A stretch of DNA of 60,176 nt from an uncultured virus (IMG/VR IMGVR_UViG_3300029258_002658). Its lineage: Duplodnaviria; Heunggongvirae; Uroviricota; Caudoviricetes. How positions within the stretch are numbered: the stretch's first letter is position 1; each line of letters starts with the position of its first letter. The translations under genes were made by a program, and so were the position numbers. Below are positions 1 to 15,327 of this stretch, one piece after another. The notes below the pieces were generated by a model. That model did not search any database. It was not told the origin of the DNA and worked only from the letters and a program-made list of their open reading frames with translations. Where the stretch lies: the IMG/VR virus record IMGVR_UViG_3300029258_002658; one strand, written 5' to 3'.

Positions 1-2
1 AT

Positions 3-161: not shown

Positions 162-216
162 TTCGCAGGGACGGTAATCTAGGGCACCAGAACGTCCTTC
201 TACCAGGAGATCTGCG

Positions 217-2532
217 ATGAAGATTTGGACCCACTACATCCCAGGGCGGCACGACCGCAGTACGGCAGCTGCGTTGGCTCGTGAGGTCACGGCGGTCAAG
301 AGCGCCCAGAAGCTGCCGGACTATCCTCATTTCTACGTCCGGGCGGTGGTGTCCGATGCGGGGGGTCCGGACGGGCGGTTCTTGGTGTGGGCCAAGTCGC
401 CTATGACCGACACACAGATCCGGGGGGCGTGGAAGAAGAGCAGTCCCGTGGTAGCTACGCGGACGAAGCTGGCTTCGGTGCCCGCGACGGTCAAAGGCAA
501 CAAGCCCAAGAAGAAGGCGAAGCCGAAGAATAGTGGGGGCTCCAAGCCCAAAGCTAAGCCCAAGCCCAAAACCAGAGCCAAAACCACCGGAGCAGCGAAG
601 CCGAAGACCGCGAAGGAGAAACTTGCGGACCTTTGGGCCGGAGCCGAATGTACCCTCGATGGGGTTCCGGCGAAGATCCAGGGGCGCAAGCAGGGCTTCG
701 CTCATGTCTCGCAGCTGGAGGATCCAGGGGAGTCGGTGGAGTTCTCTTGGGAAGCGGTCAATCGTGTGATGACCGAAGGTGACGAGGCTTTCTCCTCGGG
801 CAAGACGAAGCCGAAGGCTAAGGCTAAAGCCAGGAAGAAGAAGAAGTCCACTGCCAAGAAGACTGCCAGCGCAAAGCCCAGGACGAAGAAGAAGGCGAAG
901 GCGAAGAAGGCCTCGAAGGCTACAGGAACGGTTTCCACCAAGAAGGTGAAGCGCAAGAAGGGCAGACGGCCTGGAGCCACGAAGAAGGGCAAGAAGACGG
1001 TGTCCGGAGGGACGCTCGCCTCCCGCCTCAACTGGCTAGACCGAGCCGAGATCCAGGAAATCCTGGAGCGGTGGGGTTTCGCAGTCTACGACTCGGAGTC
1101 CACTGACGACCTCCGCGAAGCGTTGCAGGAGAACATCGAAGACGGGACCATCCCTGAGGAGGAGATCGATACGGTCAGCGGTCCCATGGGTAAGAAGAAG
1201 AAGGCGAAGTCGAAGAAGGCGAAGGGTAAGAAAACGGTAAGCGGAAAGTCTTTCAAAGAGGGGGATCGAGTAAGGGTGGTGAGTCCAGCGGCGATGATCC
1301 TGAGCGGGATCCCTGAAGGGGCGGAGGGCATCGTACGGGCCATCGCAGGTGCCAGAGGCCGGTCGATCTACCCAGACCCGGCTAAGCGACTCGTTTATGT
1401 GGAATGGGACCAGTACCCCGGCAAGGCTATTGGCCGTGATGAGGTCGAGAAGATCGACAATGGCTCGGTAGGCCGGAGGATACCTCGCGTTAGCGTCGAT
1501 GTATTCGAGGACGGGCAGCCTGTACGTGGATCCAGGGACTTCACCCAGGCCTTCGATACCGTGGGGGCACTGCCTCCTGGGGGATGGAACGAAGGCTGTG
1601 GATACGAGACGCTGGCCGGTTGGCTTCACGCCAGCAACGACCGGTACTATGAGGCGCGTCGGCACATCGCTGATCTCGCTATGGATCGCGCCGAGGAATT
1701 GGCTGCCATCCAATACCCTCTCTCCGCCAAGGCCTCAATCAAGAAGGCTTCGCTTGCTCGTCTCCAACCTTTCATCACCGAGGGCAAGCACCGCATGAAG
1801 CGGACAGGTGAGGACGGGAAAGCGGAAGGGGAATGGTACGCCGTCGTGCGGACCATCCAGCAGAACATCCTCAGCAGTGAGATCGTCAAAGCCGGAGGCC
1901 GTACACCTCAGGAAGCGGACGTGCGGTGCGCTGGTCTCGACTTGGAGGGCGTGTCCCAGGCTCCATGTCCGGCCTACACCCCAGCTACGGCTGCGGGTCC
2001 GGCAGTGATTGCGGAAGTGGATGTGGACGAAGCCTACTCCGTAGGGGATGAAGATGACGTGGTGTACTACTCCGTCGTCCTCGGACCGGATGGGTACTAC
2101 TTGAGCGCGATCATCGACTCTACTACTGGGGCGTTCGTGGACTCCCTCGTCTCGGACGATGGGCCTTATACAACCGAGGAGGATGCCATCGAAGCGGGCC
2201 TCGACCTCGCTTTGGGATGGCTCTCTAGCAACGAAATCTTCGACTACGAGATCGACGCTCGCGTCGTGCAGGCTCTGGGTGCTGAGACGGTGTCCGGGTA
2301 TCGGCGGAAGAAGGGTACGCGCCCGAGGGGCATTGCGAAACGCAAGGGAGCCACGGCGAAGCCCAAACCTCGTACCCGTAGAAGATCTGCCCCTGCGGCT
2401 GTCCACCCCACCTTGCCGTGGGACGAAGACGAGGATGATCCTTTCGAGGTGCCTACACCTCGCCGCCGCCCAACAACGGCGGGACCGAAGGAAGGAAGCA
2501 ACTTCCCTGGTCTTTTCGATGACTTCGAGTAG
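217..2532 (+). CDS. Lys-rich multidomain protein with repeated TVSG linkers
   Basis: 771 aa ORF with AGGAG RBS; Lys/Ala-rich basic tracts alternate with small globular segments (one SH3/KOW-like: FKEGDRVRVV); TVSG occurs four times, plus TAAGP and TTAGP. Confidence 0.8.
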   Translation: MKIWTHYIPGRHDRSTAAALAREVTAVKSAQKLPDYPHFYVRAVVSDAGGPDGRFLVWAKSPMTDTQIRGAWKKSSPVVATRTKLASVPATVKGNKPKKKAKPKNSGGSKPKAKPKPKTRAKTTGAAKPKTAKEKLADLWAGAECTLDGVPAKIQGRKQGFAHVSQLEDPGESVEFSWEAVNRVMTEGDEAFSSGKTKPKAKAKARKKKKSTAKKTASAKPRTKKKAKAKKASKATGTVSTKKVKRKKGRRPGATKKGKKTVSGGTLASRLNWLDRAEIQEILERWGFAVYDSESTDDLREALQENIEDGTIPEEEIDTVSGPMGKKKKAKSKKAKGKKTVSGKSFKEGDRVRVVSPAAMILSGIPEGAEGIVRAIAGARGRSIYPDPAKRLVYVEWDQYPGKAIGRDEVEKIDNGSVGRRIPRVSVDVFEDGQPVRGSRDFTQAFDTVGALPPGGWNEGCGYETLAGWLHASNDRYYEARRHIADLAMDRAEELAAIQYPLSAKASIKKASLARLQPFITEGKHRMKRTGEDGKAEGEWYAVVRTIQQNILSSEIVKAGGRTPQEADVRCAGLDLEGVSQAPCPAYTPATAAGPAVIAEVDVDEAYSVGDEDDVVYYSVVLGPDGYYLSAIIDSTTGAFVDSLVSDDGPYTTEEDAIEAGLDLALGWLSSNEIFDYEIDARVVQALGAETVSGYRRKKGTRPRGIAKRKGATAKPKPRTRRRSAPAAVHPTLPWDEDEDDPFEVPTPRRRPTTAGPKEGSNFPGLFDDFE

Positions 2533-2557
2533 CAGCTGCTGACAGGATTCCCCACAT

Positions 2558-2582
2558 CAAGGTCCGGGTCCTCCGGGCCTTG
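2558..2582 (+). terminator. Hairpin after ORF 217-2532
   Basis: CAAGGTCCGG-GTCCT-CCGGGCCTTG inverted repeat; no strong U tract. Confidence 0.4.
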
Positions 2583-2592
2583 TGCATTTGGT

Positions 2593-2648
2593 GAAGAAAA
2601 AAAAATCCGCATATCCCCGTGTGTGACATCTACGTCACTGGATAGGGT
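2593..2648 (+). promoter_or_regulatory. Promoter-like motif copy with upstream A-tract
   Basis: A-tract followed by TACGTCACTGGATAGGG (2631-2647). Confidence 0.55.
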
Positions 2649-2731
2649 ACCGCGCTCGGAGACGGACCCTCCGACACGAGAATTGTTTTCGGTCCGTACC
2701 CTCTGTACCTGTTTGAGAAGGAGAGAGACCT

Positions 2732-3451
2732 ATGTGGCGGGTCGCACTTTGTGTTGCCGCGAGTGTCGAGGTCAGCCGCGAGAAGAAGATCCCGTTCATC
2801 CGCCTTCGTTTCGTGGACGAGGTGGGGGACGTGCTGTCGTGGGGGTGCTTCGTAAATGAACGCACCTCGACGGGGGACAAGTACTTCTCCGGTGGCCTCC
2901 ATCTCCTCGTCGCCATCATCAAGAGCCCGATGGCTGTGTACAACTACCTCACGGCTCGGAAGGCAGGCGACGAAAGCTGGCGCAAGCTACGGGACGATCT
3001 CTACGTGATCGTCCGCAAGGCTGCTGCCCAGTTCGAGGACGACAAGAAACGCGAGGCGGTGGTGAATGCCATTGAGAAGTACCTCGTGGGCAAGGCTTTC
3101 AACATCTGCTTCGCACCACCGGACGAACCGGGCGGTTTCGGGCAGTTGGTGAGCCCCGACGCAGGGATTGCCTTCCCTCCGAAGGAAATCGGGATGGAAC
3201 CCGAGGAGTGGATGGGCAAGCCTATCAAGGACGCCATCGAGCAGTACGGACAGTCCACCCGTAACGAAGCCATCGGAGACGAGATCATCGGGGATCTGCC
3301 GGATCTCGGGGACCTGTATATCCCCGGTGTGACGGACAAAGAGCCCGCGAAGCCGAAGCCCGCGCCCTCCGAGAAGGCCGAGGCCGCTCCTGCTGAAGGG
3401 GAAGGCCTGGAGGTGTTCGCTGAGGACGGGGACGAGGATCCGCCCTTCTAG
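2732..3451 (+). CDS. Probable single-stranded DNA-binding protein
   Basis: 239 aa; beta-rich N-terminus and acidic tail ending EDGDEDPPF, similar to the SSB C-terminal DDIPF motif; followed by a strong terminator. Confidence 0.45.
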   Translation: MWRVALCVAASVEVSREKKIPFIRLRFVDEVGDVLSWGCFVNERTSTGDKYFSGGLHLLVAIIKSPMAVYNYLTARKAGDESWRKLRDDLYVIVRKAAAQFEDDKKREAVVNAIEKYLVGKAFNICFAPPDEPGGFGQLVSPDAGIAFPPKEIGMEPEEWMGKPIKDAIEQYGQSTRNEAIGDEIIGDLPDLGDLYIPGVTDKEPAKPKPAPSEKAEAAPAEGEGLEVFAEDGDEDPPF

Positions 3452-3483
3452 CTGCCGACCCGCCACCATGTCGGCCAGAGCGG

Positions 3484-3525
3484 GGGAGGCCCGGAGCCAT
3501 TCGGTTCCGGGTCTCCCTTTTTTTT
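3484..3525 (+). terminator. Rho-independent terminator
   Basis: GGGAGGCCCGGAGCC-ATTC-GGTTCCGGGTCTCCC stem followed by T8. Confidence 0.9.
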
Positions 3526-3552
3526 ATGAGGATTTTGCGCTGGAATAGCTAA

Positions 3553-3580
3553 ATGTCCGAGGATACACCACTATACAGAG
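3553..3580 (+). promoter_or_regulatory. Promoter-like motif copy
   Basis: ATGTCCGAGGATACACCACTATACAGAG, nearly identical to 6053-6080. Confidence 0.7.
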
Positions 3581-3624
3581 AGTACCGATCCTGTATCGGT
3601 TGGCCTTACCTGGAGAAAAAGGAC

Positions 3625-3835
3625 ATGGATCATCCGCCCGTAGGTGAGCGTATCTACCTCAAACGCGCCGTAGAGCGATTCCCTCATTTTGTGGCTCCCG
3701 CAGGAGCCCAAGGTCACAGAGTGTAGGGAAGACCATTTCGAGGTCCATTTGGAAGCATTGAACCAGGACGTGATGTGGACCAACGATCAGTTGGCCCTTG
3801 TCACGGATGATGTGGGTGTCATCCCAGCACGGTAG
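3625..3835 (+). pseudogene. Frameshifted small SH3-like gene
   Basis: RBS, then MDHPPVGERIYLKRAVERFPHFVAPAGAQG; continues in the +1 frame as VTECREDHFEVHLEALNQDVMW... to TAG 3833-3835. Confidence 0.55.
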
Positions 3836-3844
3836 GAGCAGTAT

Positions 3845-4831
3845 ATGGGCAGCAAGCAGCAACCAATCCGGTTCCTACACGAACGGTTAGAGGCCGCTTT
3901 CGCTGGACAGTCCGTCGAGCAGCAGCTGGCCGTTCACCACGCGGCTTACGAAACCGAGGATCCGCATCGGGCCGTAAACACGAACCTCGCGATGCTGAAC
4001 ACGTTCATCTCATGCGGAGCGTTTCGCGGGACTCAGGATCTGCCGGTGGCTCGGTATGTCGTGGCCGATGCCCTTTACCAGGCCATGCTTGAAACGGAGC
4101 CTCCACGCGGATTGGACGACTGCGATCTCATGCTACCGGAAGGGGCTATCCTGGTTCGTTGGCCCAACGGTGAGGAGACGTACGCCGCTACCTACCAGCG
4201 GTTCGTTCTATGGACCGTAGAGTACTTCCCGCCAACGGCTGTGGAGAAGTGGTCGCGGATGCCTGTGTGGATGGATATGCAGCGCCCGGACTTGGTTCTC
4301 TGGCACCAGTTCGCCACTGGCACTGGATCCCGGCGCAAGGTGTTCGAGCAGATGGCTCAGCGAGGGCGGAGGCCCTCCCCTCGTGACGACGGTTTCTACT
4401 ACGAATCGTGGTACGGATCGCTCGACGGTGATGCCCCAGCTTTCAGTACCCCGAGCGAGATGGAAGAGGTAGAGGCAAGACGCGCTCTCCTCCAGACGCT
4501 CTTGGTCTACCTCACAACCGGTGAGAAGGTAGACGCGGTCCGTACGGACTTTCAGAAGCCTCCGAAGAAGAAGGGGAAGAAAGAGAGGCCTCCTCGGTGG
4601 CTCAACTATGTCCACCTGGGATCTCGTACTCGGTACCTCTCCCACGAAGAGGTAGCGGAAAGGGAACGCCGCGCAGGCCGTAAACTAGACCACCGTGTCC
4701 GCGTTCGAGGGCACTATCGGAGCCAAGCCCACGGCCCGAAGCACAGCCTCCGCAAGTGGATCTGGATTGCGCCTCACTACCGGGGCACTGACGGTGCGTT
4801 CATCGACCGGGTGATCCGCCTCGACCTCTAG
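3845..4831 (+). CDS. Phage-type hypothetical protein
   Basis: 328 aa with AGGAG RBS; C-terminal VRGHYRSQAHG...RKWIWIAPHYRG motif, recalled from uncharacterised phage proteins. Confidence 0.75.
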   Translation: MGSKQQPIRFLHERLEAAFAGQSVEQQLAVHHAAYETEDPHRAVNTNLAMLNTFISCGAFRGTQDLPVARYVVADALYQAMLETEPPRGLDDCDLMLPEGAILVRWPNGEETYAATYQRFVLWTVEYFPPTAVEKWSRMPVWMDMQRPDLVLWHQFATGTGSRRKVFEQMAQRGRRPSPRDDGFYYESWYGSLDGDAPAFSTPSEMEEVEARRALLQTLLVYLTTGEKVDAVRTDFQKPPKKKGKKERPPRWLNYVHLGSRTRYLSHEEVAERERRAGRKLDHRVRVRGHYRSQAHGPKHSLRKWIWIAPHYRGTDGAFIDRVIRLDL

Positions 4832-5292
4832 GTCAGCCTCTGTTGGAGGAGGTAGAGGTTCACCTGATGGTTGTCCGCAAGGGTCTGGAAGAGGTTCGCT
4901 ACGCCGGGGTTGGGGACCTCCTGCTCGAAAAGGCGAATCGCCTCCCCGAGCCGCTCCTGCAACCTAAGTTCAAGGCCCAGCAGGAAGCGAAGGTAGCTCT
5001 CGACGCCAGCCCCGAACTTGCGTTTGCCGATAGTGGCATTCACGCCCTCTGCTACTTCCCGAGGGGCCAAGGGGTGTTCAGGGTAGATACCCTGCAACCG
5101 TTCCATCACACCATCGATCTCCAGGATTGGGCCGCAGCAGTTGTCTTCACCTTCCCCCAGGTAAAGCCTCTGGAGCAAGGCGTGGTCCCCAGCGAAGTTC
5201 GGGCCATCCGCTTGGATATGGGCGTGGTGGTAAACGAGGTTCAGAGTCCGCAGGATGGCAATGACATCCACAAAGGCCTTACGCTCTTCCAT
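4828..5292 (-). CDS. Dps/ferritin-like helical-bundle protein
   Basis: YHHAHIQADGPNFAGDHALLQRLY...EIDGVMER resembles the Dps HWnv.GpnF..lH.lf..ly...D.iaER pattern; GGAGG RBS before ATG at 5292. Confidence 0.7.
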   Translation of the reverse strand: MEERKAFVDVIAILRTLNLVYHHAHIQADGPNFAGDHALLQRLYLGEGEDNCCGPILEIDGVMERLQGIYPEHPLAPREVAEGVNATIGKRKFGAGVESYLRFLLGLELRLQERLGEAIRLFEQEVPNPGVANLFQTLADNHQVNLYLLQQRLT

Positions 5293-5322
5293 AGTATCCT
5301 CCAGGTCAGGATCCATCTGAGC

Positions 5323-5339
5323 TACACCACTATACGACC
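5323..5339 (+). promoter_or_regulatory. Promoter-like motif copy
   Basis: TACACCACTATACGACC in the divergent intergenic region. Confidence 0.55.
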
Positions 5340-5399
5340 TTCTCGGAAGGACCAGTAGTCTCGGCCCCTCTTGTTTTATCGACTCCACGGTATACACCT

Positions 5400-5597
5400 A
5401 TGGCCTCCGTGAAATCGCCACCCTACGGGAGGCTCTCGAAACCTTCGAAAGTGAGTTGGGGACATCAGATCACCCAAACCAAAGCAGCTTCCATTGACCC
5501 TAGCCTTTTAGGGGAGGCATTCGGAGAAGAGGTGGCCAGAGACTTCAGCGCCCTTCGACGTAACGGTTTCCGGTTCTACTTCATGCCGAACTACTAA
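5400..5597 (+). CDS. Small hypothetical protein
   Basis: 65 aa ORF downstream of a promoter motif. Confidence 0.4.
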   Translation: MASVKSPPYGRLSKPSKVSWGHQITQTKAASIDPSLLGEAFGEEVARDFSALRRNGFRFYFMPNY

Positions 5598-5609
5598 CGG
5601 GAGGGGCGG

Positions 5610-6020
5610 ATGGTTCGCTGGTTCTTGCGACATGCGCGGCTGGAAGGCCTTGCGAAGCTGGTTCGGGATACTCAATTCCAACAGCCGTTTATGCTCCGGC
5701 ACCTGATGGTACGGCTCACAAAAAGCCGGTCCTCTGCAATGATATTCGTTGGGCTCTTCGGTGCTTTATCGGCTTACAACTTGTGGTCCGTGGTGATGTT
5801 TGCAGGATCTGTGTCAGGGGTTGCTCTGAGGCTCCCGGCTTTGATCCTCACCAGTGCAATGCTGGTGTACCACGTTATCGGTTGGAAAGCAGCGGGACGG
5901 CTACGAGACGAGTGTGCGGTCCGGTGGGTGAACGCAGTAGAGCGATACACTGCGTTGTTTTCTAGTGGGGTGATCTCCGAGGAGCAGCTTGCTGTCTGTA
6001 TCAACGGACCAAGATCGTAG
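5610..6020 (+). CDS. Hypothetical membrane protein
   Basis: 136 aa; two hydrophobic segments; GGAGG RBS. Confidence 0.6.
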   Translation: MVRWFLRHARLEGLAKLVRDTQFQQPFMLRHLMVRLTKSRSSAMIFVGLFGALSAYNLWSVVMFAGSVSGVALRLPALILTSAMLVYHVIGWKAAGRLRDECAVRWVNAVERYTALFSSGVISEEQLAVCINGPRS

Positions 6021-6026
6021 GGGCTC

Positions 6027-6080
6027 GAAAGAAAAAGTGCGCGATTGGGCAGATGTCCGAGGATACGTCACTATATAGAG
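6027..6080 (+). promoter_or_regulatory. Promoter-like motif copy with A-tract
   Basis: GAAAGAAAAAG followed by ATGTCCGAGGATACGTCACTATATAGAG. Confidence 0.7.
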
Positions 6081-6130
6081 GGTGCGCCGGGACTTCCTCG
6101 GCGCGAGTCCTCGAACATGGAGCCCTACCC

Positions 6131-6433
6131 ATGAGCGACAACGGAAACGGCGATACGCGGGTGATCGACATCATGCCCGTAGCACTCAAGGACCAGCAGA
6201 ACGCGGCAAGGTCCTTGGCGATCTGTGATGCTATCGACAAAGCCAAGACTCGGTTCTTCGAGGTGCTTACCTTGGAGTGGGAGTCTGTTAGGGCCACTCT
6301 CCAGGCCTCGGAAGATCCCGAGGTACGGGAGACGGCAGAGGCCGCGCAGCGTGTCCTCCTGGAAATGCGGGAGTACCAGGAAGATCTCGTGCGCCTCCTC
6401 TCCGGGCAAGAGACTTCGCACTCGTATGAGTAG
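6131..6433 (+). CDS. Hypothetical helical protein
   Basis: ATG at 6131 after GGAG; lies downstream of a promoter motif. Confidence 0.6.
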   Translation: MSDNGNGDTRVIDIMPVALKDQQNAARSLAICDAIDKAKTRFFEVLTLEWESVRATLQASEDPEVRETAEAAQRVLLEMREYQEDLVRLLSGQETSHSYE

Positions 6434-6469
6434 CTTCCCTGTTCAACTCCTCTACCTGAAGAGTCGCTG

Positions 6470-7051
6470 ATGTCCGTTACTGTACAGTATTTCCGTTCCA
6501 ACGGCGGTCCCGAGGAACTGATGGTGTCGCGGGAGGAAACACCTTTCGATGCCGTTCTCCAGATGGTGGTGTATGAACTGGGGTATGGAGGGACTCCGTC
6601 CATCACGTCGCCTACAGAGATTCAGGTCCGCACCAACGTACTGAACTGCCGTGACCGGTCGGTGTTCCGGGGGACACCTTCCGACCTGAGGCCGCTCATG
6701 GAGGCACTGGTCTACTGGTATCACCCAGAGATCCGGGGCAAGCGCGAAGTCGCCACGGAGGTCGTCGCAGAAGCCGCTAGCCGTTTGGGTTGGAAGACGA
6801 TCCTCCAAGCGAACCTGGGACCGATCATGGTAGGTCGGAGTACCGTCGTAGTTGTGCTGGCGTGTGTTATGGGGCCGGACTGCTTCGACCGAGATCCGGA
6901 GGCTTTGGCAGATATCGTCCAGAGGGGGCTCTGTTCCTCTTCGACAAGGGACTTCGAGGCTGCGCTGTCCCTAGCCTACGAAGAGGAATCCAGCCTGTGG
7001 GACGTGCTGGAGGCCCTAGACCTTGCGAAGGCCCCTCCTGTTGGGGCCTAG
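6470..7051 (+). CDS. Hypothetical protein
   Basis: 193 aa ORF tiling with its neighbours. Confidence 0.6.
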   Translation: MSVTVQYFRSNGGPEELMVSREETPFDAVLQMVVYELGYGGTPSITSPTEIQVRTNVLNCRDRSVFRGTPSDLRPLMEALVYWYHPEIRGKREVATEVVAEAASRLGWKTILQANLGPIMVGRSTVVVVLACVMGPDCFDRDPEALADIVQRGLCSSSTRDFEAALSLAYEEESSLWDVLEALDLAKAPPVGA

Positions 7052-7060
7052 CAGAGCCAG

Positions 7061-7125
7061 AGAAAAAAAAATCTGAGAAAAACGTCGATCCTGTCAGGAG
7101 TCTGCGGATACACCACTATATAGGG
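7061..7125 (+). promoter_or_regulatory. Promoter-like motif copy with A-tracts
   Basis: Two A-tracts followed by GGATACACCACTATATAGGG. Confidence 0.7.
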
Positions 7126-7142
7126 TGAGCCGATTGGCTCGA

Positions 7143-7200
7143 CCTTCGGATGCCTGAGCGCCCCAGCGACTCCGAAGGCCCACAAGGGCGCAACGAGGAG
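7143..7200 (+). ncRNA. Pseudoknotted 5' leader element, copy A
   Basis: Stem CCTTCGGA/TCCGAAGG; inner stem CTG/CAG; loop GCGCCC pairs with GGGCGC (7186-7191); covaries with copy B. Confidence 0.65.
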
Positions 7201-7207
7201 AGATGCG

Positions 7208-7387
7208 ATGGAAACGGCAATGCCGAAGCTGGTGTTGAAGGCCCAGACGGAAACGCACCGCTGCGAAGACTGCGGTGCGGATGGTGCGTCCGACGATTGG
7301 GAATGCTGGGAAGGTACCTTCCTCTGCCTGGAGTGCTACGAAGCCCGTGTGGCTCGCATGAAGCGCGTCCCGCCGGAGTGGCTGTAG
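7208..7387 (+). CDS. Small Zn-finger protein (59 aa, not in the supplied ORF track)
   Basis: GAGGAG RBS; METAMPKLVLKAQTETHRCEDCG...FLCLECYEARVARMKRVPPEWL; two CxxC motifs. Confidence 0.7.
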   Translation: METAMPKLVLKAQTETHRCEDCGADGASDDWECWEGTFLCLECYEARVARMKRVPPEWL

Positions 7388-7455
7388 CTATAAGTCCCTT
7401 ATGGTCTCCGGAGGGCGAAGGTCGGGGACACTGCGTTTTCTACGCAGTTGCGTAA

Positions 7456-7520
7456 GCCTCCGGAGCCTGATGCTCCCCAGTGACCCGGAGGCCGGTTTAG
7501 GGAGCAACGAAAGATGCGGT
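7456..7520 (+). ncRNA. Pseudoknotted 5' leader element, copy B
   Basis: Stem GCCTCCGG/CCGGAGGC; inner stem CTG/CAG; loop TGCTCCC pairs with GGGAGCA (7500-7506). Confidence 0.65.
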
Positions 7521-7928
7521 ATGAGCGACGTTACCCATAACCACCTTGTCGAATCTGAGTGCAACGGCGTCTGCAAAGAGGTGGGCCGTTACACAAGCGG
7601 AGACTGCCAATGGATCGTCTGGCGGTGCGAACACTGCCTCGCAGAGATCCACGCCCCGTCGTTGGCGACCTATCGTCACGATTGGGCCTCGCAGCGTAAG
7701 CCGGAGAATCCCTACCTGATCCTTGGGGCCATCCTCCAGTTGGCTAGCGAAGTGGAGGCCGATGACGATGCTTGTGACGCGGAGAACCGCATCTTCGAAA
7801 TCCTCCATCACAACCTGGGCTGGGATTGGGAGAACGACGAATCCTGGGATCCAGTAGGGGCCAAGATGACCTCGGAAGAGATCGCCAGAGCCGGTGTTTT
7901 GAAGGCCGCACAAATCCTTCTCGGATAA
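7521..7928 (+). CDS. Hypothetical protein with Cys motifs
   Basis: ATG at 7521 directly after leader copy B; CNGVC and CEHC. Confidence 0.6.
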   Translation: MSDVTHNHLVESECNGVCKEVGRYTSGDCQWIVWRCEHCLAEIHAPSLATYRHDWASQRKPENPYLILGAILQLASEVEADDDACDAENRIFEILHHNLGWDWENDESWDPVGAKMTSEEIARAGVLKAAQILLG

Positions 7929-7946
7929 GGATGGAGAGAACCAACT

Positions 7947-8558
7947 ATGCAACCAAACAATGCCTTACATGTAACCCTGCGTTCTGGGGTTCGGTGTGCT
8001 ACCGGTGAGATCGACATTTCCGAGGCGAAGGTAGAAGACCAGCGGTTCCTCACCTGGGAGGCTTTTCAAGCCGCTTACAAGGACTGCGACCTTCTCTACG
8101 CAGAGATCGAAGAGGATCTCGACAGTACGGAGAGGTCCCACAGTCTGCTTAGCGATACCGAATCGCTAGAAGTAGAGGAGATCGGCATCATCGAGAGGCT
8201 GGAGCAACACGAAGACGGCGACACAACTCTTTGCGAGGCCTGTGGCCGTGAGATCGCTCTCGGAGAGATGGTCCGCACACACGTTGCTTGGGGGCCTTGC
8301 ACTGCGACGTTCGGCTCTTGCTGTTGCCCGGTTCTGAAGGCGCAGGCGGTGAGCGCCTGTGCAGGGTGTGGCACAACAACCCGGACGCTGCATCACGCCG
8401 TCCCCTATGATGAGGACGAAGTCTACTGGGTAGAGGTTCCGGGCGATTTTGGGGCCTACTTCTGTAGGTTGTGCCTCGCGAAACGCAACCCGCATACGCC
8501 GCCTCACCCGGATCGGCTGCAATCCTGGCCTGACCAGGAAGCGCATCGGCAACCTTAA
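7947..8558 (+). CDS. Cys-rich Zn-finger hypothetical protein
   Basis: GGAG RBS; CEAC, CAGC, CRLC. Confidence 0.65.
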   Translation: MQPNNALHVTLRSGVRCATGEIDISEAKVEDQRFLTWEAFQAAYKDCDLLYAEIEEDLDSTERSHSLLSDTESLEVEEIGIIERLEQHEDGDTTLCEACGREIALGEMVRTHVAWGPCTATFGSCCCPVLKAQAVSACAGCGTTTRTLHHAVPYDEDEVYWVEVPGDFGAYFCRLCLAKRNPHTPPHPDRLQSWPDQEAHRQP

Positions 8559-8576
8559 TCCTGAAGGGGGAAGACG

Positions 8577-8819
8577 ATGAAAATCGATATCTCTGAACTG
8601 ACCTTCCATGTCCCACCCGAGTGCCAGGGACAGATACAAGTGGTGTCATACGCCTACGCCCCGGACGCGGGGATCGTGGAGCGTGTGGTAGACCGCAGCA
8701 GCCCGTTCGACACGCCATCGTACACGCTGTACGAGGATCCAGACCCGGAAAGCGATTTCGATCCCTGGAACGGATCGCCCCTCCTGGGTGATGAAATCTC
8801 GGATGTAGAGTTTTCCTAG
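8577..8819 (+). CDS. Small acidic hypothetical protein
   Basis: 80 aa ORF with purine-rich RBS. Confidence 0.6.
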   Translation: MKIDISELTFHVPPECQGQIQVVSYAYAPDAGIVERVVDRSSPFDTPSYTLYEDPDPESDFDPWNGSPLLGDEISDVEFS

Positions 8820-8914
8820 GTCTACCCTCCATTAACTACAAGCCCCGCCCGGAGGCTTCTATCTGTTCGTTCGTTTTCCCTAGGGGCCAGCCCCGCAGCC
8901 TGAAAGGCACTATC

Positions 8915-9154
8915 ATGTCCAATTCCACCCTTGTCCGCCGCCGCTGGTACTGGTTCGAGGGCGACGACGCCCCAGGGGCGTCCCACCCGGTCGATATCTT
9001 GGGGACGCCCGATGAGGCGTCCCTGCCGGACGACCTCAACAAAGCCGTGATGGTGATCGACGCCGACACGGTGGTTTCGATTCAATTCGACGGGTGCGGG
9101 GACCAGGTAGACGCCCTGGTCCCCGCGTGGGAGGGGCATGTCCGCATCAAGTAG
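8915..9154 (+). CDS. Small hypothetical protein
   Basis: 79 aa ORF with AAGG RBS. Confidence 0.6.
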   Translation: MSNSTLVRRRWYWFEGDDAPGASHPVDILGTPDEASLPDDLNKAVMVIDADTVVSIQFDGCGDQVDALVPAWEGHVRIK

Positions 9155-9170
9155 TAGTTTCGCACCTGGA

Positions 9171-9192
9171 ATCCCCGCCGCAAGGCGGGGAT
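9171..9192 (+). terminator. GNRA-capped hairpin
   Basis: ATCCCCGCC-GCAA-GGCGGGGAT perfect 9-bp stem; no U tract. Confidence 0.4.
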
Positions 9193-9378
9193 GGGGATTG
9201 GGAAGTGTCCCCCGATGGGGAGGTCAGCCCCGCTGGAAGCGAGTGCGAGGAGTGTGGGCTTCCCCGTGAAAGTACCGAAGAACGTCGATGCGGGTGGGAC
9301 GAGTACGACCAGCCGGTCCTACGGCTGCTCTGTGACGAATGTGTCCGTAAGGCTTAGGCCAGAAGAATAGGAGCAACC

Positions 9379-9756
9379 ATGAAGGTCTTAATGAAACGCA
9401 TGGCCAGTGGAACGTACGTCCACTCCGCTTCGGAGGGACAGTACGAGGTTACACGCAAAGATCGTGACCATTGGTTGGTTAGGCATTACGGTGAAGGGGG
9501 TGCTTCGACTCTCGCAGAGGTTTCGACTCTCGCAGCGGCAAGGACCAAGATTAGCGAGATCCTAGAGGCCGCAGAGGCGGAGCGTGTCGAGTCAGCTGGA
9601 TGGCACCGTTGCCCCGATTGCGGTTGGGTTGGCCGCAAGGGTCAATTACACCGCAACTGGGACGGGTACCCCCGCTCAGAACTGTCGCTGGCTGAGGATT
9701 CGCCACGCCCCAGCGGTGAGTGCCCTAAGTGCGTGGCGTTTACTTACCCCCTGTAA
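9379..9756 (+). CDS. Hypothetical protein with C-terminal Zn ribbon
   Basis: AGGAG RBS; CPDCGW...GECPKC. Confidence 0.65.
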   Translation: MKVLMKRMASGTYVHSASEGQYEVTRKDRDHWLVRHYGEGGASTLAEVSTLAAARTKISEILEAAEAERVESAGWHRCPDCGWVGRKGQLHRNWDGYPRSELSLAEDSPRPSGECPKCVAFTYPL

Positions 9757-9759
9757 ACA

Positions 9760-10194
9760 ATGTCCAGACCTAGGAAGAAACAACCCGAGTTGGATCCGGA
9801 GAAGTGCCTGGATTTCGGGCGTCACTACGGAGAGACCTGGGGCCGGGTGCCTGTGCGGTACCTGCACTGGATGGTCCAAGTGGGGCACACCCAACAGGAC
9901 CGTGCTGCAAAGGAACTGAAGCGCCGAGGGTCGGAGGAAGTGCCCGAACTAGATATCAGCAAACACGCTGTGGATCGGGCTAGCCTGCGACTCCTAAACG
10001 ACTGGCAGCAAACCCGGCGTTGGGACGAAGGCCTCTACTCGTGGCTCCTGCGGAAGGGCCTCGAAGCCCTGGAGAAGGGCGAGAAGGAAGACACCGGGAT
10101 CTACGTCTACGAAGGGGTCCAATGGGTGTTCCAGTCTCTCGACCTTGTGTGGCCTACCTTGAAAACCGTCATCAAGCGCGACAGGGAGGACTGA
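9760..10194 (+). CDS. DUF3820-like domain protein
   Basis: LDFGRHYGETWGRVPVRYLHW fits the FGKhkG..l.dvP..YL.W pattern; second segment ISKHAVDR. Confidence 0.6.
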   Translation: MSRPRKKQPELDPEKCLDFGRHYGETWGRVPVRYLHWMVQVGHTQQDRAAKELKRRGSEEVPELDISKHAVDRASLRLLNDWQQTRRWDEGLYSWLLRKGLEALEKGEKEDTGIYVYEGVQWVFQSLDLVWPTLKTVIKRDRED

Positions 10195-10256
10195 GATGTA
10201 TGTTCAACATACTCGACCCGAGAATCATCAAGGCCTCCCTACCTAGGAGGAAACCC

Positions 10257-10439
10257 ATGCCAGTCGAGTACACAGTCGAGGTTTGGGTCGAAGCTGAATC
10301 CCAGTGGGTGCCAGTTTCCCGGCACCAAACTTTCACACACGCAACACAACGGGCCGCTAGGGGCCGGGGCCATAAGTGTCGGATCAACCGTCTCGGTGGT
10401 GGAACTCCGGTCTATGGGTGGAACTGGAAACTGAACTGA
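10257..10439 (+). CDS. Small hypothetical protein
   Basis: AGGAGG RBS before MPVEYTVEVW. Confidence 0.55.
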   Translation: MPVEYTVEVWVEAESQWVPVSRHQTFTHATQRAARGRGHKCRINRLGGGTPVYGWNWKLN

Positions 10440-10466
10440 CGTGGCCTGGACGAAGGGGGAAAGCAA

Positions 10467-10736
10467 ATGACCACCGAACGATACACACTCTATGGAGCCT
10501 ACGGCGAACAAGAGACGCCGCTATCCCACTACGCCACTCTACGGGAGGCCGGTATCGGCTGGGCCAAGCTATCCTGGCACGAAACGGGAGGGGCGGGGGA
10601 GAATGCTGCTTGGATCCGTGACAACAAAACCGAGGAGGACGTTACGAGCCAAGCCCTTCAGACCGTCGCAGCGCAGGCCGAGAAGGTCGAAAACCTGCCC
10701 CCCTGGGCTCTGAAGCGGTTCGGTTTCGGTGCCTGA
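10467..10736 (+). CDS. Small hypothetical protein
   Basis: 89 aa ORF with RBS. Confidence 0.55.
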   Translation: MTTERYTLYGAYGEQETPLSHYATLREAGIGWAKLSWHETGGAGENAAWIRDNKTEEDVTSQALQTVAAQAEKVENLPPWALKRFGFGA

Positions 10737-10745
10737 TATTTAACG

Positions 10746-10829
10746 GCACGGTGATCTGCTTCATCGTGCTACGCAGCGAGGTGGCTGTCGGATCGGCCCA
10801 ATACCGACAGTCACCTCGTCAATTTGGCC
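10746..10829 (+). ncRNA. Tandem hairpin structured intergenic element
   Basis: 9-bp stem 10746-10769 and 15-bp stem 10777-10818. Confidence 0.45.
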
Positions 10830-10887
10830 TCCTCTTGTTGTGTACACCACAGTAAGGTTTAAGCCCCTTCGTCCTAGAGAGGCAGAT

Positions 10888-13800
10888 ATGCTCCTGAAAC
10901 TGCAATACGTCGATGAGATCCCGCCGAACATAAACGACGACGGCTACCGGTACGCATTCCTCATCGGACCTGGGGACAAGGCGCTTCTGGGCATCAAGTC
11001 CATGGCTCCGCTTTCGTTCTCCAAGGCTCGCGAAGACTCGCTCTCCGCAGGAGGGAGAGCCCAGAAGAAGGACGGCCTCATCATCGAGTTGCCGTTCCGA
11101 CCGGACTACTACGAAGCAAAGGAGCCGTACCCTGGGCAGCTGGAGCGTATGTCGCCAGGGAAATGGTACTGGGTGATGATCGCGGAGTCGTTCAAGAGCC
11201 CATCCCGGTCCCACCAGTTCGAGGGTAAGGGGATCAGAGGGGTGGTAAACCCTGTCTACCGTGCGGTGGGGATCTACCCGATTGTGGGGTCTGCGGACCT
11301 CAAGAAAACCATTGAAAGCGCCCAGCGTCTCCCTGCCATCGAGTTCAAACGCAACCCTGCGTTCTCGGAGAAGGCTACGTCGTTGATTGCTGCGCTTACT
11401 GGTGGGGATCCTTTCGATGAGGAGGAGCAAACGGAGCCCGTATCGTCAGTAGACACCCTGGTACGGATCTGGGGGGCGGTGCTGGGGTACTGCCACTCCT
11501 CTACGTTTTTGAAGCGAGGGGAAGAGTTAGCGACGGAAGGGAGGCTGAATCAGCCTAATCTCCAAGGTATGTATCGGCACTACTGCGAACTCGAAAAGGA
11601 CGAGTACGAGGCCCCGCTCCTTTCCTTGGTAGGCCACCTCTCGGATCCCGAGATGTACGGCTCGTTAGGGGCACTCCTCCCGTACGCAATGATCGCATGG
11701 CCTTACTCGTTCGTTGGGCCTTCTAGCAACCCTGGACTGGTATCCCCTAATACGCCGGGAGAGACCCTCTTCCCGTTCTGGGTCGTAGATCTGCTGGCCC
11801 GTGCGATGTTTCCGACGCCTCACGTTGAGGACCGCGTGTTGGCTGTGGTCCACGAAGCCATCTTGCACCTGGAGGGGCGCAACCACCGGGCCTTCAGTCC
11901 AAAGGGTGAACCAGGGCTTCGGTTCGATACCCAGGGGCCGATCCCTAGTGGATCTACGATGTTTCCCCGTAGCCTGATCTACGAGGCGATCCGGAGGCGG
12001 CACCAGGATCTGGGGGAACAGGGGCAGCAGGGGTCTGAGATGGAGATCTACATGGCGGGCTCAAAGACCCCGAGTCCCTACAAGGCCATATCCGGTTGGT
12101 TGGGTGTTCCGTTGGACCCAATACCACTACGGAACCCAGGGGCACCGGCTAAACAGGGGTATCTGTCTGTAGACCATGCTGTATCGAAACTCTGTGAACG
12201 AGTGGAGAGCGTTGCGGCTTCGACTAGCCCTGAGCCGTGGTACACGCTACAGACACGAGTGAACGCTGCTAAGGAGATCATCGGCCTCCTGCGAACACAG
12301 GAGGATCTGTACGCTCCTGATATCCTCCCTGTGGATCCGCCTGAGGATGATGGGAGTACCCCTGACCGTGTCCTGTCCCCTTCGCAGGGGGCCGCTTCGA
12401 GGATGGTGATTCGATGGAGGATCTCCTGCGTCACTGGTGATCCAGGGTCCGGAAAGAGCCACCTCCTCAAGGAGTTCAAGAGGTTCGCCCTTGAGTTGGA
12501 GCAGGCCGAGCCTACGTGTCTCTTGGTATTAACTCCTACGAACCGGGCGGCATCGCGTGTCGCGAGTCTCCTCGACGCTGATGACGATCTTCTCAACCCC
12601 GTCTTCCTGTTCACCACGTCTGAGCCGAAGAAAGACGAGGATAAACCCCCTCGACTTCCACGTAACTACGCGGTCCTGAACGAAGATGGTCAGGTAGTCG
12701 AAGGAGCCCCGGAAGAGGATGCTCACGAAATGCTGACCTTCACTGTCGGCGTGGGTACCCTCGACTCTTTCTTCCACAAGTTCCACTCTTCCGAAAGGTT
12801 CCGCGAGGCCATCCTCTATCGGAAGGTGCTGGTCGCCATCGATGAGACCTCGATGGTCACCGCTGAGAAGGTGGTTCGCGCCCTGGCATTGTTCCGGGAC
12901 GAAGAGGAAGAGCAGGAGAGGGTCTTCCTAAGCCAGCGAGTGCGCCGAGTGATCTTCCTAGGTGACCCTTCGCAGCTGGAATCAGTCGAACCGGGCAACT
13001 TCTTCTACGATATCTTGCGGACGTTCCCTATCACATACCTGGGAGAGCAGTTCCGTTACGACGGCAGGTTGGCTCATCTGTTTGGATTGGTGCGGTCGGG
13101 CATGACCTTCGCACAGGCGAGGAACGATACATCCCACTTGCTCCTGGAAGCCGCAGGGCTGACGGCTACTACCGGCGAGGATCCTAACCTGCGGGTTTAC
13201 ATGGTAGATGATCTGCCTCTGACGGACATGGCTCCGCCGGGGTTCCGCCGACCAGACGAAAAGGACTATTGGAATCGCTTCCTCCTGCGGACCGAAGAGT
13301 CCATCCGGACCACGATCTTTCGGGAGGTTATGGACTGGTCACGGGTTCATCTGGAGAACGGTGGGTCTTTCCCTCGAAGAGCGGTGCGGGGCTCGGCCAG
13401 GGAGTTCAGCCAAGGGACGCGGGACTACCAGCGGTTCTCGAAGGCCGCTGTCCAGCCCGTACTGCCTTTTCGTATTGTAACCATGGTTAGGACTCCGCAA
13501 TCCGAGTCAGGCCGGACCTTTTACCTCTCCTCCTCCACCCGCGTGAATGGGTGGTTCCACGACGTTCTGCTGGGGAGGCTTGTACCGGACGACCCGAACT
13601 TCGAGCCTGTTCCAGGGATGGAGTTGAACCCTACTCTGAAGCACTTTGGCAGTAAGCGGTACTGGAACCAGGGGGTAGAGAGACCGGACTATAGCGCCGA
13701 CTACGAGCGAGAGTGGCAACGGGGTAGGGAGTATGCGCGAATGTTTCTGTTCAACAACAGGCCTCGCGATATCTGGCTCTCCCCCAACTGGCCTTACCTT

Positions 13801-15239: not shown

Positions 15240-15263
15240 AACTGAAAAAGTTTTGCAGTTTTG
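15234..15263. repeat. AT-rich palindrome, copy 1
   Basis: CCCTGAAACTGAAAAAGTTTTGCAGTTTTG overlapping the primase stop codon. Confidence 0.85.
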
Positions 15264-15270
15264 CCCTACG

Positions 15271-15299: not shown

Positions 15300-15327
15300 T
15301 TCCTAGTGCATAGGTGGCAAGCGATTC

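What the first reader, a model, noticed from the sequence alone, without database searches (positions are those of the whole stretch)
7143..7520. Duplicated pseudoknotted 5' leader RNA with compensatory changes
Seen: two ~60-nt elements precede consecutive genes (ATG 7208 and 7521) and share one architecture: 8-bp stem, WGC/YGAC internal loop, CTG/CAG stem, apical loop pairing with a downstream segment, then CAACGA...AGATGCG and the start codon. Differences are compensatory in the stem (CCTTCGG/CCGAAGG vs CCTCCGG/CCGGAGG) and in the pseudoknot (GCGCCC/GGGCGC vs GCTCCC/GGGAGC). The pseudoknot's 3' strand lies next to the ribosome-binding region. Inference: a cis-regulatory RNA (riboswitch, protein-binding translational switch or processing site). 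I cannot match it to a family I know, and covariation rests on only two copies.
Basis: partly seen in the sequence, partly recalled or inferred. Interest (0 to 1): 0.8.

Follow-up and report, generated by a model that had tools for sequence, protein, structure and literature searches.

The report
Twin pseudoknot leader RNAs in phage
Two neighbouring early genes of an uncultured phage are each preceded by the same small folded RNA, a hairpin whose loop pairs with bases just upstream of the ribosome site; it probably tunes their translation, matches no known RNA family, and has so far been seen in one phage lineage only.

Summary
Window 7126-7207 and 7441-7520 are two paralogous leaders with one architecture. 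Each has a small 5' hairpin (P0), one A, an 8-bp stem (P1), a 2x2 internal loop, and a 4-bp stem with a bulged pyrimidine (P2). A 7-8-nt loop pairs with 6-7 bases that lie 7 nt after P1 (the pseudoknot). A conserved tail ends at the start codon 15-16 nt later.

All 24 modelled pairs form in both copies. The changes in P1 and the pseudoknot are compensatory, while the linker and P0 sequences have diverged. A strain variant adds a compensatory U:A to C:G change in P0 of copy 2. It has no substitution in the 50-nt core, although the gene behind it differs at 6%.

Rfam has no match. There is no third copy in the window. The only homologues found were near-identical strains.

Copy 1 starts about 3 nt after a phage-specific promoter-like repeat. 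My best reading, at moderate confidence, is a cis-acting structured leader that controls translation initiation of two early genes. mRNA stabilisation or processing, a riboswitch and a put-like RNA remain open. Evidence rests on two paralogues plus strain variants, and there are no RNA data.

The parts
7100..7125 (+). Phage-specific promoter-like repeat (core GGATACACCACTATATAG, 7106-7123). The transcript is inferred to start near the GGG at 7123-7125.
   Evidence: There are 3 copies in the window (3561, 6061, 7106) against 0.03 expected, and 0 of 100 shuffles reach 3 (D12, 8). Each is followed by a hairpin. The start site is inferred by a recalled analogy to T7-type promoters and was not tested.
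7126..7141 (+). P0 of copy 1: 6-bp hairpin with tetraloop GAUU, then A7142.
   Evidence: MFE fold and pair check. The hairpin behind the 6061 promoter is homologous and carries a compensatory A:U to C:G change.
7143..7178 (+). Copy 1 P1-P2 hairpin: 8-bp P1, UG/AC internal loop, 4-bp P2 with bulged C7167, 7-nt loop 7157-7163.
7179..7185 (+). Copy 1 linker, 7 nt. The length is conserved with copy 2 but the sequence is not (2 of 7 identical).
7186..7191 (+). Copy 1 pseudoknot 3' strand GGGCGC, pairing with loop bases 7158-7163.
   Evidence: Pair check and duplex energy of -13.2 kcal/mol; compensatory change against copy 2.
7192..7207 (+). Copy 1 tail AACGA..AGAUGCG, containing the Shine-Dalgarno GGAG (7197-7200). 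It ends at ATG 7208.
7208..7387 (+). Gene 1: a 59-aa acidic Cys-rich (CxxC...CxxC) protein of no known family. A strain variant carries an insertion of about 79 aa after residue 10.
7441..7454 (+). P0 of copy 2: 5-bp hairpin with tetraloop AGUU, then A7455. It competes with an alternative 7-bp hairpin at 7430-7448.
   Evidence: Fold and pair check. The strain variant changes 7441 T>C and 7454 A>G together, turning U:A into C:G.
7456..7492 (+). Copy 2 P1-P2 hairpin: 8-bp P1, AG/AC internal loop, 4-bp P2 with bulged U7481, 8-nt loop 7470-7477.
7493..7499 (+). Copy 2 linker, 7 nt.
7500..7506 (+). Copy 2 pseudoknot 3' strand GGGAGCA, pairing with 7471-7477 (7 bp). It holds the only GGAG-like sequence before gene 2.
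7507..7520 (+). Copy 2 tail (ACGAAAGAUGCGGU), ending at ATG 7521. It contains AUG 7514, which opens an 8-codon out-of-frame reading frame.
   Evidence: the variant changes at 7520 are
7521..7928 (+). Gene 2: a 135-aa acidic Cys/His-rich protein of no known family.

Best explanation
The two elements are paralogous copies of a structured 5'-leader RNA. Each is a hairpin-type (loop-to-3'-tail) pseudoknot placed at -22 to -16 from the start codon. It acts in cis on translation initiation of two consecutive early genes of an uncultured phage.

Shown: the fold is conserved by compensatory change, and its distance to the AUG is fixed.

Inferred, step 1: the folded pseudoknot, together with the conserved unpaired bases, forms a specific surface at the 5' edge of the ribosome-binding site. 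Those bases are the G.A/Y.C internal loop, the bulged pyrimidine, GAC, and the AACGA and AGAUGCG tail.

Inferred, step 2: a common trans-acting factor recognises that surface to set or time translation of both genes together. The factor could be a phage or host protein, or the 30S subunit itself.

Each copy pairs its loop only with its own 3' strand, because the two pairings differ at one base pair. The pseudoknot is therefore an intramolecular fold and not a shared site for a trans RNA.
For: 1. One architecture occurs in both copies with all 24 pairs intact. Eight pairs are changed on both sides, against at most 42.6% pairing in slid controls. The pattern is unlikely under random substitution (6373 of 2,000,000).

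2. Constraint is uneven in the way expected of a functional RNA. The P1-P2 hairpin, the pseudoknot strands and the tail are conserved. The 7-nt linker keeps its length but only 2 of 7 bases, and P0 and the coding regions share no sequence.

3. The distance from the pseudoknot's 3' strand to the AUG is 16 nt in copy 1 and 15 nt in copy 2. A strain variant inserts one base before ATG 7521, which makes it 16.

4. Strain variants support selection on the RNA:
- The X11 strain has 0 substitutions and 1 loop insertion in the 50-nt core 7456-7505.
- The same strain has 11 substitutions in the next 180 coding bases, giving 5 non-synonymous and 3 synonymous codons.
- Strain L091 has 5 substitutions in 6945-7062 and none in 7064-7237, apart from three indels that lie outside the fold.

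5. Most genes of the phage carry GGAG 7-9 nt before the ATG. Copy 1 has this directly after the pseudoknot. In copy 2 the only GGAG lies inside the pseudoknot's 3' strand. The fold therefore abuts or overlaps the ribosome-binding determinants.

6. The pseudoknot helices are stable: -13.2 and -12.3 kcal/mol as duplexes.

7. The two leaders behind the other promoter copies (3561, 6061) have only a 5' hairpin before the RBS. The P1-P2-pseudoknot module is thus specific to these two genes and is not a generic feature of the phage's 5' ends.
Against: There is no experimental or RNA-seq evidence.

Only two paralogues and two near-identical strains support the fold, so no statistical covariation test in the R-scape sense is possible.

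Four of the eight double changes lie in P1. They depend on a one-base register shift in an alignment that was fitted to the structure. By plain sequence alignment P1 has one compensatory pair.

In copy 1 the Shine-Dalgarno sequence and the AUG are free in both the folded and unfolded states, so masking does not explain regulation there.

No candidate binding protein was identified. The two downstream proteins are acidic (7 K+R against 12 D+E, and 10 against 24), which does not suggest RNA binding.

A 7-nt linker must span about 14 stacked layers. By my estimate this is possible only if the linker is extended or the internal loop bends. I could not model it.
Confidence: 0.4

Rival explanations
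1. The element is an mRNA 5'-end stabiliser or processing module. The compact P0 + P1-P2 + pseudoknot fold leaves no single-stranded 5' segment, so it protects the message from 5'-end-dependent decay. Copy 2 marks a processing site that gives gene 2 its own protected 5' end.
For: All three promoter-like repeats are followed at once by a hairpin. Copy 1 starts about 3 nt after the inferred transcript start. Copy 2 lies in a 133-nt intercistronic gap and has its own P0-like hairpin, supported by a compensatory strain change. In copy 1 the fold does not mask the RBS.
Against: A stabiliser needs only stems. It does not explain the conserved unpaired bases, the pseudoknot, the conserved tail or the fixed distance to the AUG. 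The stems total 12 bp, shorter than the roughly two helical turns I recall for RNase III sites (recalled, not tested). No RNA ends could be examined.
Confidence: 0.22
2. The element is a small-molecule riboswitch of a new class. The pseudoknot is an aptamer whose ligand-dependent folding gates translation.
For: It is about 50 nt and has a loop-to-3'-tail pseudoknot topology, conserved unpaired nucleotides around the junction, and a position directly before the RBS. In copy 2 the 3' strand contains the only SD-like GGAG.
Against: No Rfam riboswitch model matches, even at E up to 10. The controlled genes are small acidic Cys-rich phage proteins with no metabolic or transport family. The element was found in only one phage lineage. 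In copy 1 the SD lies outside the fold.
Confidence: 0.1
3. The element is a put-like cis-acting RNA that modifies the transcribing RNA polymerase (anti-pausing or antitermination), as putL and putR do in phage HK022.
For: HK022 put RNAs are about 70 nt and made of two stem-loops. There are two similar copies per genome, one just downstream of an early promoter and one about 270 nt downstream of a start site (PMC9378689, passages read). Here P0 plus P1-P2 is two stem-loops of about 53 nt, or 66 nt with the pseudoknot strand. Copy 1 lies just after a promoter-like repeat and copy 2 about 315 nt further on.
Against: Both copies lie in one transcription unit, and each is tied to a start codon at a fixed distance with a conserved tail. 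put has no such loop-to-tail pseudoknot. No sigma-70-like promoter is found in 1-15500 (0 against 4.2 expected), so the polymerase may not be the host enzyme that put acts on. No strong terminator lies on the + strand between 7500 and 15277. I made no direct comparison with put sequences.
Confidence: 0.07
4. The element has no function of its own. It is a duplicated promoter-leader cassette whose similarity is residual and whose compensatory changes arose by chance, or it is a DNA-level palindrome such as a protein operator.
For: There are only two copies in one genome. The region before copy 2 keeps a faint likeness to the promoter repeat (GTC.G.GGA.AC), which suggests a duplicated cassette. 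P1 is a near-palindrome at the DNA level.
Against: The linker, P0 and the flanks have diverged to near-random while the stems stayed intact through paired changes. The strain variants spare the element. The loop-to-3' covariation is not explained by a duplex-DNA operator. A G.U pair in P0 of copy 1 fits only the + strand RNA.
Confidence: 0.1
5. The element is a self-cleaving ribozyme or another catalytic or processing RNA with a hairpin-loop pseudoknot (pistol-like topology).
For: A hairpin loop forms a 6-bp pseudoknot with a downstream strand. I recall this as a feature of pistol ribozymes, which are often phage-associated (recalled, not from a call).
Against: No ribozyme model in Rfam matches at E up to 10. 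The element has no P2/P3-like helices after the pseudoknot strand.
Confidence: 0.04

Closest known systems
Translational operator of T4/RB69 gene 32 (5' pseudoknot recognised by gp32)
   Same: It is a phage mRNA leader with a 5' pseudoknot upstream of the RBS, and it is used for translational control (PMC535899, passages read).
   Different: That operator is a roughly 28-nt pseudoknot followed by more than 40 nt of unstructured RNA with UUAAA/UAAA repeats, on which gp32 spreads cooperatively. Here the fold is about 49 nt (66 with P0). It ends 15-16 nt from the AUG and no A/U repeats follow it. The genes encode small acidic Cys-rich proteins and no SSB, and the element occurs twice.
HK022 putL/putR RNAs
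   Same: There are two sequence-related copies per phage, each about 70 nt with two stem-loops carrying bulges. The first lies just after an early promoter and the second a few hundred nt from a start site (PMC9378689).
   Different: put acts on host RNA polymerase and is not tied to start codons. Here both copies lie in one operon, each at a fixed distance from an AUG and each with a loop-to-tail pseudoknot. The promoters are not sigma-70-like.
Small pseudoknot riboswitches (preQ1-II/III, SAM-II, fluoride, guanidine-III; recalled)
   Same: The size (about 50 nt), the hairpin-loop-to-3'-tail pseudoknot and the position at the RBS are the same.
   Different: No Rfam model matches, the gene context is not metabolic, and the distribution is limited to one phage lineage.
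E. coli L20 operator and other ribosomal-protein leaders
   Same: These are protein-binding leader structures that include a pseudoknot. The L20 mRNA carries two binding sites for one regulator (PMC1888825, abstract seen in the listing).
   Different: Those sites mimic rRNA and regulate the binder's own operon. Here the two sites are paralogous copies before two different genes, and the binder, if there is one, is unknown.
Phage Mu Com-mom leader
   Same: A small zinc-finger phage protein binds an mRNA leader structure and activates translation (PMC6483171, abstract seen in the listing). The genes here also encode small CxxC proteins.
   Different: I recall that Com opens a stem that masks the mom start. 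Here the copy 1 RBS is not masked. The local Cys-rich proteins are acidic and show no tested likeness to Com.

Membership tests
Any Rfam 15 family (riboswitches, ribozymes, leaders, CRISPR repeats and type III antitoxin RNAs included) | A match to the family covariance model at or near its gathering score | tested here: not met
   At gathering thresholds the whole window gives only 4 tRNAs. At E up to 10 on 6900-7800 there are 2 weak hits, both at 6956-7083 and neither overlapping an element.
T4 gene 32-type translational operator | A pseudoknot followed by more than 40 nt of unstructured RNA with UUAAA/UAAA repeats that includes the RBS (PMC535899) | tested here: not met
   Only 15-16 nt lie between the pseudoknot and the AUG, and they hold no UUAAA or UAAA repeat.
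T4 gene 32-type translational operator | It precedes the gene of the single-strand-binding protein that binds it | tested here: not met
   Genes 7208-7387 and 7521-7928 match no Pfam family above its curated cut-off and no PHROGs family. They are small and acidic.
HK022 put RNA | About 70 nt, two stem-loops, two related copies downstream of early promoters | tested here: inconclusive
   Two stem-loops (P0, P1-P2) span 53-66 nt. Copy 1 lies about 3 nt after the inferred start and copy 2 about 315 nt downstream, but both are in the same operon and tied to AUGs.
HK022 put RNA | It acts on the host multisubunit RNA polymerase (beta' zinc-binding domain) to suppress pausing and termination | not testable with these tools
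   The polymerase that reads these promoters is unknown. There are 0 sigma-70-like sites in 1-15500 against 4.2 expected.
Riboswitch (generic) | A ligand-dependent conformational change of a conserved aptamer | not testable with these tools
   This needs in-line probing or binding assays. Sequence alone shows a compact conserved fold next to the RBS.
Type III toxin-antitoxin antitoxin RNA (ToxI-like pseudoknot repeats; recalled) | Tandem head-to-tail repeats of about 36 nt placed before an endoribonuclease toxin gene | tested here: not met
   The two copies are 313 nt apart, each before its own gene, and are not tandem. The neighbouring genes match no family.
RNase III processing site of T7 type (recalled) | An irregular hairpin of about two helical turns in an intercistronic region | tested here: not met
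   P1 plus P2 give 12 bp. The length requirement is recalled from memory and does not come from a call.

The most novel reading that the evidence does not exclude
The fold is a new class of sensing RNA in a phage early operon. It would be either a ligand-binding pseudoknot aptamer (a riboswitch) or a self-contained RNA that reprogrammes the transcribing or translating machinery without a dedicated protein, in the manner of put. It is duplicated with 'orthogonal' pseudoknot pairings, so that two anti-host genes are switched by the same signal.
Probability: 0.12. Interest if true: 0.8.

Novelty: new variant of a known kind. Interest (0 to 1): 0.42.

Why it matters
Structured leaders that control phage early genes are known from only a few model phages: the T4 gene 32 and regA targets, Mu com-mom and HK022 put. 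An unmatched, compact pseudoknot leader used twice in one early operon of an uncultured sediment and seawater phage would add a new RNA family. It would also give a handle on how such phages time their first, mostly unknown, anti-host proteins. Because it is small (about 50-66 nt) and carries natural compensatory variants, probing and reporter assays could test it directly. Its value is limited for now by its narrow distribution and the unknown host.

Tried and rejected
**Searches for a known family**
- Rfam at gathering thresholds and at E up to 10 gave nothing on the elements.

**Searches for homologues**
- Viral contigs with the strict core pattern gave 0 loci.
- Viral contigs with the relaxed core gave 61 loci. 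None has P1 of at least 8 bp together with a pseudoknot of at least 6 bp.
- Viral contigs with a pattern that leaves the pseudoknot sequence free gave 47 loci, none with the fold.
- Viral contigs with the promoter motif gave 2 loci, both AT-rich chance matches.
Two are real: L114, which is window 7051-7474 exactly, and L091, a strain variant. My pattern required one base between GAC and CCG, so it could not match the copy-2 spacing.
The best, L209, has 7 and 6 pairs and reads like coding sequence shared with L258.

**Protein routes to relatives**
- The helicase and gene 2 in viral contigs gave none.
- The 193-aa upstream protein has 1 relative, at 97% identity.
- The helicase has a 99% twin and one 26% hit.
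- PolA by tblastn against phages gave 7 records, at most 34% identity over at most 24% of the query.
- blastn of 6400-8600 against phages gave no match.

**Other attempts**
- The whole genome or contig could not be reached.
- Earlier-findings look-ups returned nothing.
- No RNA holder is listed among the 13 runs, so expression, transcript ends and processing could not be examined.
- The protein atlas gave only unnamed zinc-ribbon-like clusters.

**Ideas considered and dropped**
- L091 first looked like a different gene behind the same leader, a mosaic junction. Searches show that it is the same gene with an internal insertion.
- An upstream segment (7406-7414) can pair with the 5' strand of copy 2's P1 in the MFE fold of 7388-7530. 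The strain change 7407 T>C would break that pairing, so I do not propose it as an anti-structure.
- A conserved upstream ORF starting at the AUG in AGAUGCG: its frame and length differ between the copies and between strains.
- MAFFT misaligned the two copies. I used a model-based alignment instead.
Full report
**What the window is.** The window is a 59% G+C stretch of an uncultured phage-like genome.
- It encodes two SF1 helicases, a primase, a family-A DNA polymerase, a NUDIX/transglutaminase giant protein and four tRNAs. Most ORFs match no family.
- No whole genome is held for it.
- Its polymerase is at most 34% identical, over at most 24% of its length, to any of 50,697 phage records.
- Its proteins have only near-identical twins among 5.8 billion clusters.
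- DNA runs from sediment and seawater hold it, 13 runs in 11 studies.
- The finding lies in a + strand block of small genes (about 3600-10700) upstream of the replication genes.

**Observation check.**
- Copy 1: P1 is 7143-50 with 7171-78. The internal loop is UG opposite AC. P2 is C7153:G7168 plus CUG with CAG, and C7167 is bulged. The loop is 7157-63. The pseudoknot is GCGCCC (7158-63) with GGGCGC (7186-91). The tail is AACGAGGAGAGAUGCG, then ATG 7208.
- Copy 2: P1 is 7456-63 with 7485-92. The internal loop is AG opposite AC. P2 is 7466-69 with 7478-80 and 7482, and U7481 is bulged. The loop is 7470-77. The pseudoknot is 7471-77 with 7500-06 (7 bp). The tail follows, then ATG 7521.
- ViennaRNA predicts the nested part (P1-P2) as the MFE structure in both copies: -32.7 and -33.8 kcal/mol, z -1.9 and -2.2, with 8 and 7 of 200 shuffles folding as well.
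- The pseudoknot helices score -13.2 and -12.3 kcal/mol as duplexes. That is stronger than the weak local hairpins they would replace.

**Anatomy beyond the finding.**
- The element is longer at its 5' side. Each copy is preceded by a small hairpin and exactly one A. In copy 1 this is P0 at 7126-41 (6 bp, loop GAUU). In copy 2 it is 7441-54 (5 bp, loop AGUU).
- Copy 1 sits directly behind a 25-nt repeat, with core GGATACACCACTATATAG at 7106-23. The repeat occurs three times (3561, 6061, 7106), against 0.03 expected by chance.
- The core of that repeat recalls promoters of T7-type polymerases. This is recalled and was not tested, and no polymerase gene was found in the window.
- No sigma-70-like promoter is found in 1-15500, against 4.2 expected. 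I therefore read the repeat as a phage-specific promoter with a start near GGG 7123-25.
- All three repeats are followed at once by a hairpin. The one behind 6061 is homologous to P0 of copy 1, with an A:U to C:G compensatory change.
- P0 thus looks like a generic 5'-end hairpin of this phage's transcripts. The P1-P2-pseudoknot module is found only before genes 7208 and 7521.
- Copy 2 has no intact promoter repeat, only a faint likeness. It lies in a 133-nt intercistronic gap.
- The pseudoknot's 3' strand ends 16 nt (copy 1) and 15 nt (copy 2) before the AUG.

**Is it more than chance?**
- A covariance model built from copy 1 alone finds copy 2 at 43.7 bits (E 4.4e-10). The next hit in the window has E 0.67.
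- A model built from both copies finds no third copy; the next hit has E 0.87.
- A sequence-free descriptor finds only these two loci, plus the mirror image of copy 2 on the minus strand. It requires P1 of at least 7 bp, P2 of at least 3 bp, a loop of 6-10 nt, a linker of 4-10 nt and a pseudoknot of at least 6 bp. Shuffles give 0.13 loci each (30 shuffles). A relaxed version adds only chance-level hits, 7 against 3.1. The descriptor is post hoc.
- On the structural alignment, 48 of 48 cells pair and 8 of 24 pairs are changed on both sides: 3 in P0, 4 in P1 and 1 in the pseudoknot. Partners slid by 1-3 columns pair in at most 42.6% of cells.
- Caveat: this alignment was fitted to the structure, and the four P1 changes depend on a one-base register shift. 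By plain sequence alignment P1 has one compensatory pair, U:A to C:G.
- Counting only that pair and the pseudoknot pair (four substitutions), random placement keeps all pairs in 0.32% of trials.
- Among 179 chance matches to the 15-base core in other collections, none combines a P1 of at least 8 bp with a pseudoknot of at least 6 bp. These matches exclude the two window copies, but include two loci of this same phage that do have the fold: L114, which is the window's own sequence, and the strain L091. A further 120 matches from bacterial genomes also lack the combination.

**Uneven constraint.**
- Between the copies, the hairpin, both pseudoknot strands and the tail motifs AACGA and AGAUGCG are conserved.
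- The linker keeps its length (7 nt) but only 2 of 7 bases.
- P0, the upstream region and the coding regions are unrelated in sequence.
- This pattern argues that the copies are old enough for free positions to have randomised, and that the unpaired conserved bases are also under selection.

**Strain variants.** Contigs of one run (X11) carry a strain about 5% different.
- Around copy 2 it differs at 7407, 7441, 7449 and 7454, by one extra A in the loop (after 7469), and at 7520 (T>C plus one inserted C).
- 7441 T>C and 7454 A>G together turn the outer U:A pair of P0 into C:G.
- The 50-nt core 7456-7505 has no substitution. The next 180 coding bases have 11, giving 5 non-synonymous and 3 synonymous codons.
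- At the coding rate about 3 changes would be expected in the core. The Poisson chance of seeing none is about 0.05 (my arithmetic).
- A second strain record (L091) has 5 substitutions in 6945-7062 and none in 7064-7237. It has three indels, all outside the fold: one in the A run, two bases in the promoter repeat and six bases in codons 3-4.
- These data are few, but all point the same way.

**Known families and homologues.**
- Rfam 15 has no match.
- Pattern scans of viral, metagenome and bacterial-genome collections, and protein-guided searches, found only the window's own sequence and near-identical strains.
- Absence elsewhere is therefore not shown. No RNA data could be examined.

**How it most likely works.**
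- Shown: a conserved fold, intramolecular pseudoknot pairings that differ between the copies, a fixed position at -22 to -16 from two start codons, and direct contact with the ribosome-binding determinants.
- Most genes here carry GGAG 7-9 nt before the ATG. Copy 1 has GGAG five bases after the pseudoknot. Copy 2 has its only GGAG inside the pseudoknot's 3' strand, 16 nt from ATG 7521.
- Because the two pseudoknot pairings differ, a shared trans RNA cannot be the partner of the loop or of the 3' strand.
- Inferred: the folded module is a recognition surface at the 5' edge of the ribosome's footprint. Through it one factor sets translation of both genes together. The factor could be a protein of the phage or the host, or the 30S subunit itself. 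In copy 2 the fold would also hide the SD-like bases.
- I put this reading at about 0.4.
- Points against it: the copy 1 RBS is free in either state, no binder is identified, the local proteins are acidic, and the 7-nt linker is tight for the span it must cover (my estimate, not modelled).

**Rivals.**
- 5'-end stabiliser or processing module, 0.22. It fits P0 and the intercistronic place of copy 2. It does not explain the conserved unpaired bases, the pseudoknot or the spacing to the AUG.
- New riboswitch, 0.10.
- put-like polymerase-modifying RNA, 0.07. The likeness to HK022 putL/putR in size, two stem-loops, two related copies and position after a promoter is real. However, the tie to start codons and the tandem placement in one operon speak against it.
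- No function, or a DNA-level palindrome, 0.10.
- Ribozyme, 0.04.

**Comparison with what is known, and novelty.**
- In working principle the closest systems are phage and bacterial translational operators built on pseudoknots. These include T4 gene 32, the L20 operator with its two sites, and Mu com-mom (listings).
- It is a member of none of them. The defining features of the gene 32 operator were tested and not met, and no Rfam model matches.
- I rate it a new variant of a known kind: an orphan pseudoknotted leader family, duplicated within one early operon.
- Interest is moderate. The fold is well supported for a two-copy element and is easy to test. Its function is inferred, its host is unknown and its distribution is narrow so far.

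Noticed in passing
window 3555-3589, 6055-6089, 7100-7134: Three copies of a 25-35-nt promoter-like repeat (core GGATACRYCACTATAYAG), each followed at once by a hairpin. The hairpins after 6061 and 7106 are homologous, with an A:U to C:G compensatory change. No sigma-70-like promoter is found in 1-15500 (0 against 4.2 expected), and no RNA polymerase gene was seen in the window.
   Followed up: partly
window 15234-15263, 23880-23909, 45876-45905, 56892-56921: Four copies of a second 30-nt repeat (CCCTGAAACTGAAAAAGTTTTGCAGTTTTG, 80-97% alike; D10). They lie at gene boundaries, for example just before 45903 and 56933. This may be a second promoter or operator class.
   Followed up: no
window 7213-7237; L091 1-267 (minus strand): A strain variant carries the same leader and the first codons, then about 79 extra codons inserted after residue 10 of gene 7208 (plus a 6-base deletion at 7213-18), and then rejoins the window at 7236-37. 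The 59-aa protein therefore has a long and a short form in the population.
   Followed up: partly
window 7208-9756: A run of small acidic proteins rich in CxxC pairs (7208, 7521, 7947, 9094, 9379), likely zinc ribbons. None matches a Pfam family above its curated cut-off or any PHROGs family.
   Followed up: partly
window 7500-7540: AUG 7514, inside the conserved AGAUGCG, lies 9 nt after the SD-like GGGAG and opens an 8-codon out-of-frame ORF. In the X11 strain the changes at 7520 shorten it to AUG CGG CCA UGA, whose stop overlaps ATG 7521. Copy 1 has no equivalent, so I did not build on it.
   Followed up: partly
window 182-219: The ribosome-binding region of gene 217 (GGAGAUCUGCGAUG) resembles the tail of copy 1 (GGAGAGAUGCGAUG). 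The model hit has E 0.67 and there is no fold upstream.
   Followed up: partly
window 7430-7454: Two mutually exclusive hairpins share ACGCAG: 7430-36 with 7442-48 (7 bp), and 7441-45 with 7450-54 (5 bp, P0 of copy 2). The strain variant's paired change supports the second.
   Followed up: partly
window 23200-23735: Long imperfect GGT/GGN repeats (a glycine-rich tract) inside the 1369-aa ORF 19771-23880 (D1, D3, D4).
   Followed up: no
window 52879-59458 (minus strand): Four tRNA genes lie on the minus strand among + strand ORFs.
   Followed up: no
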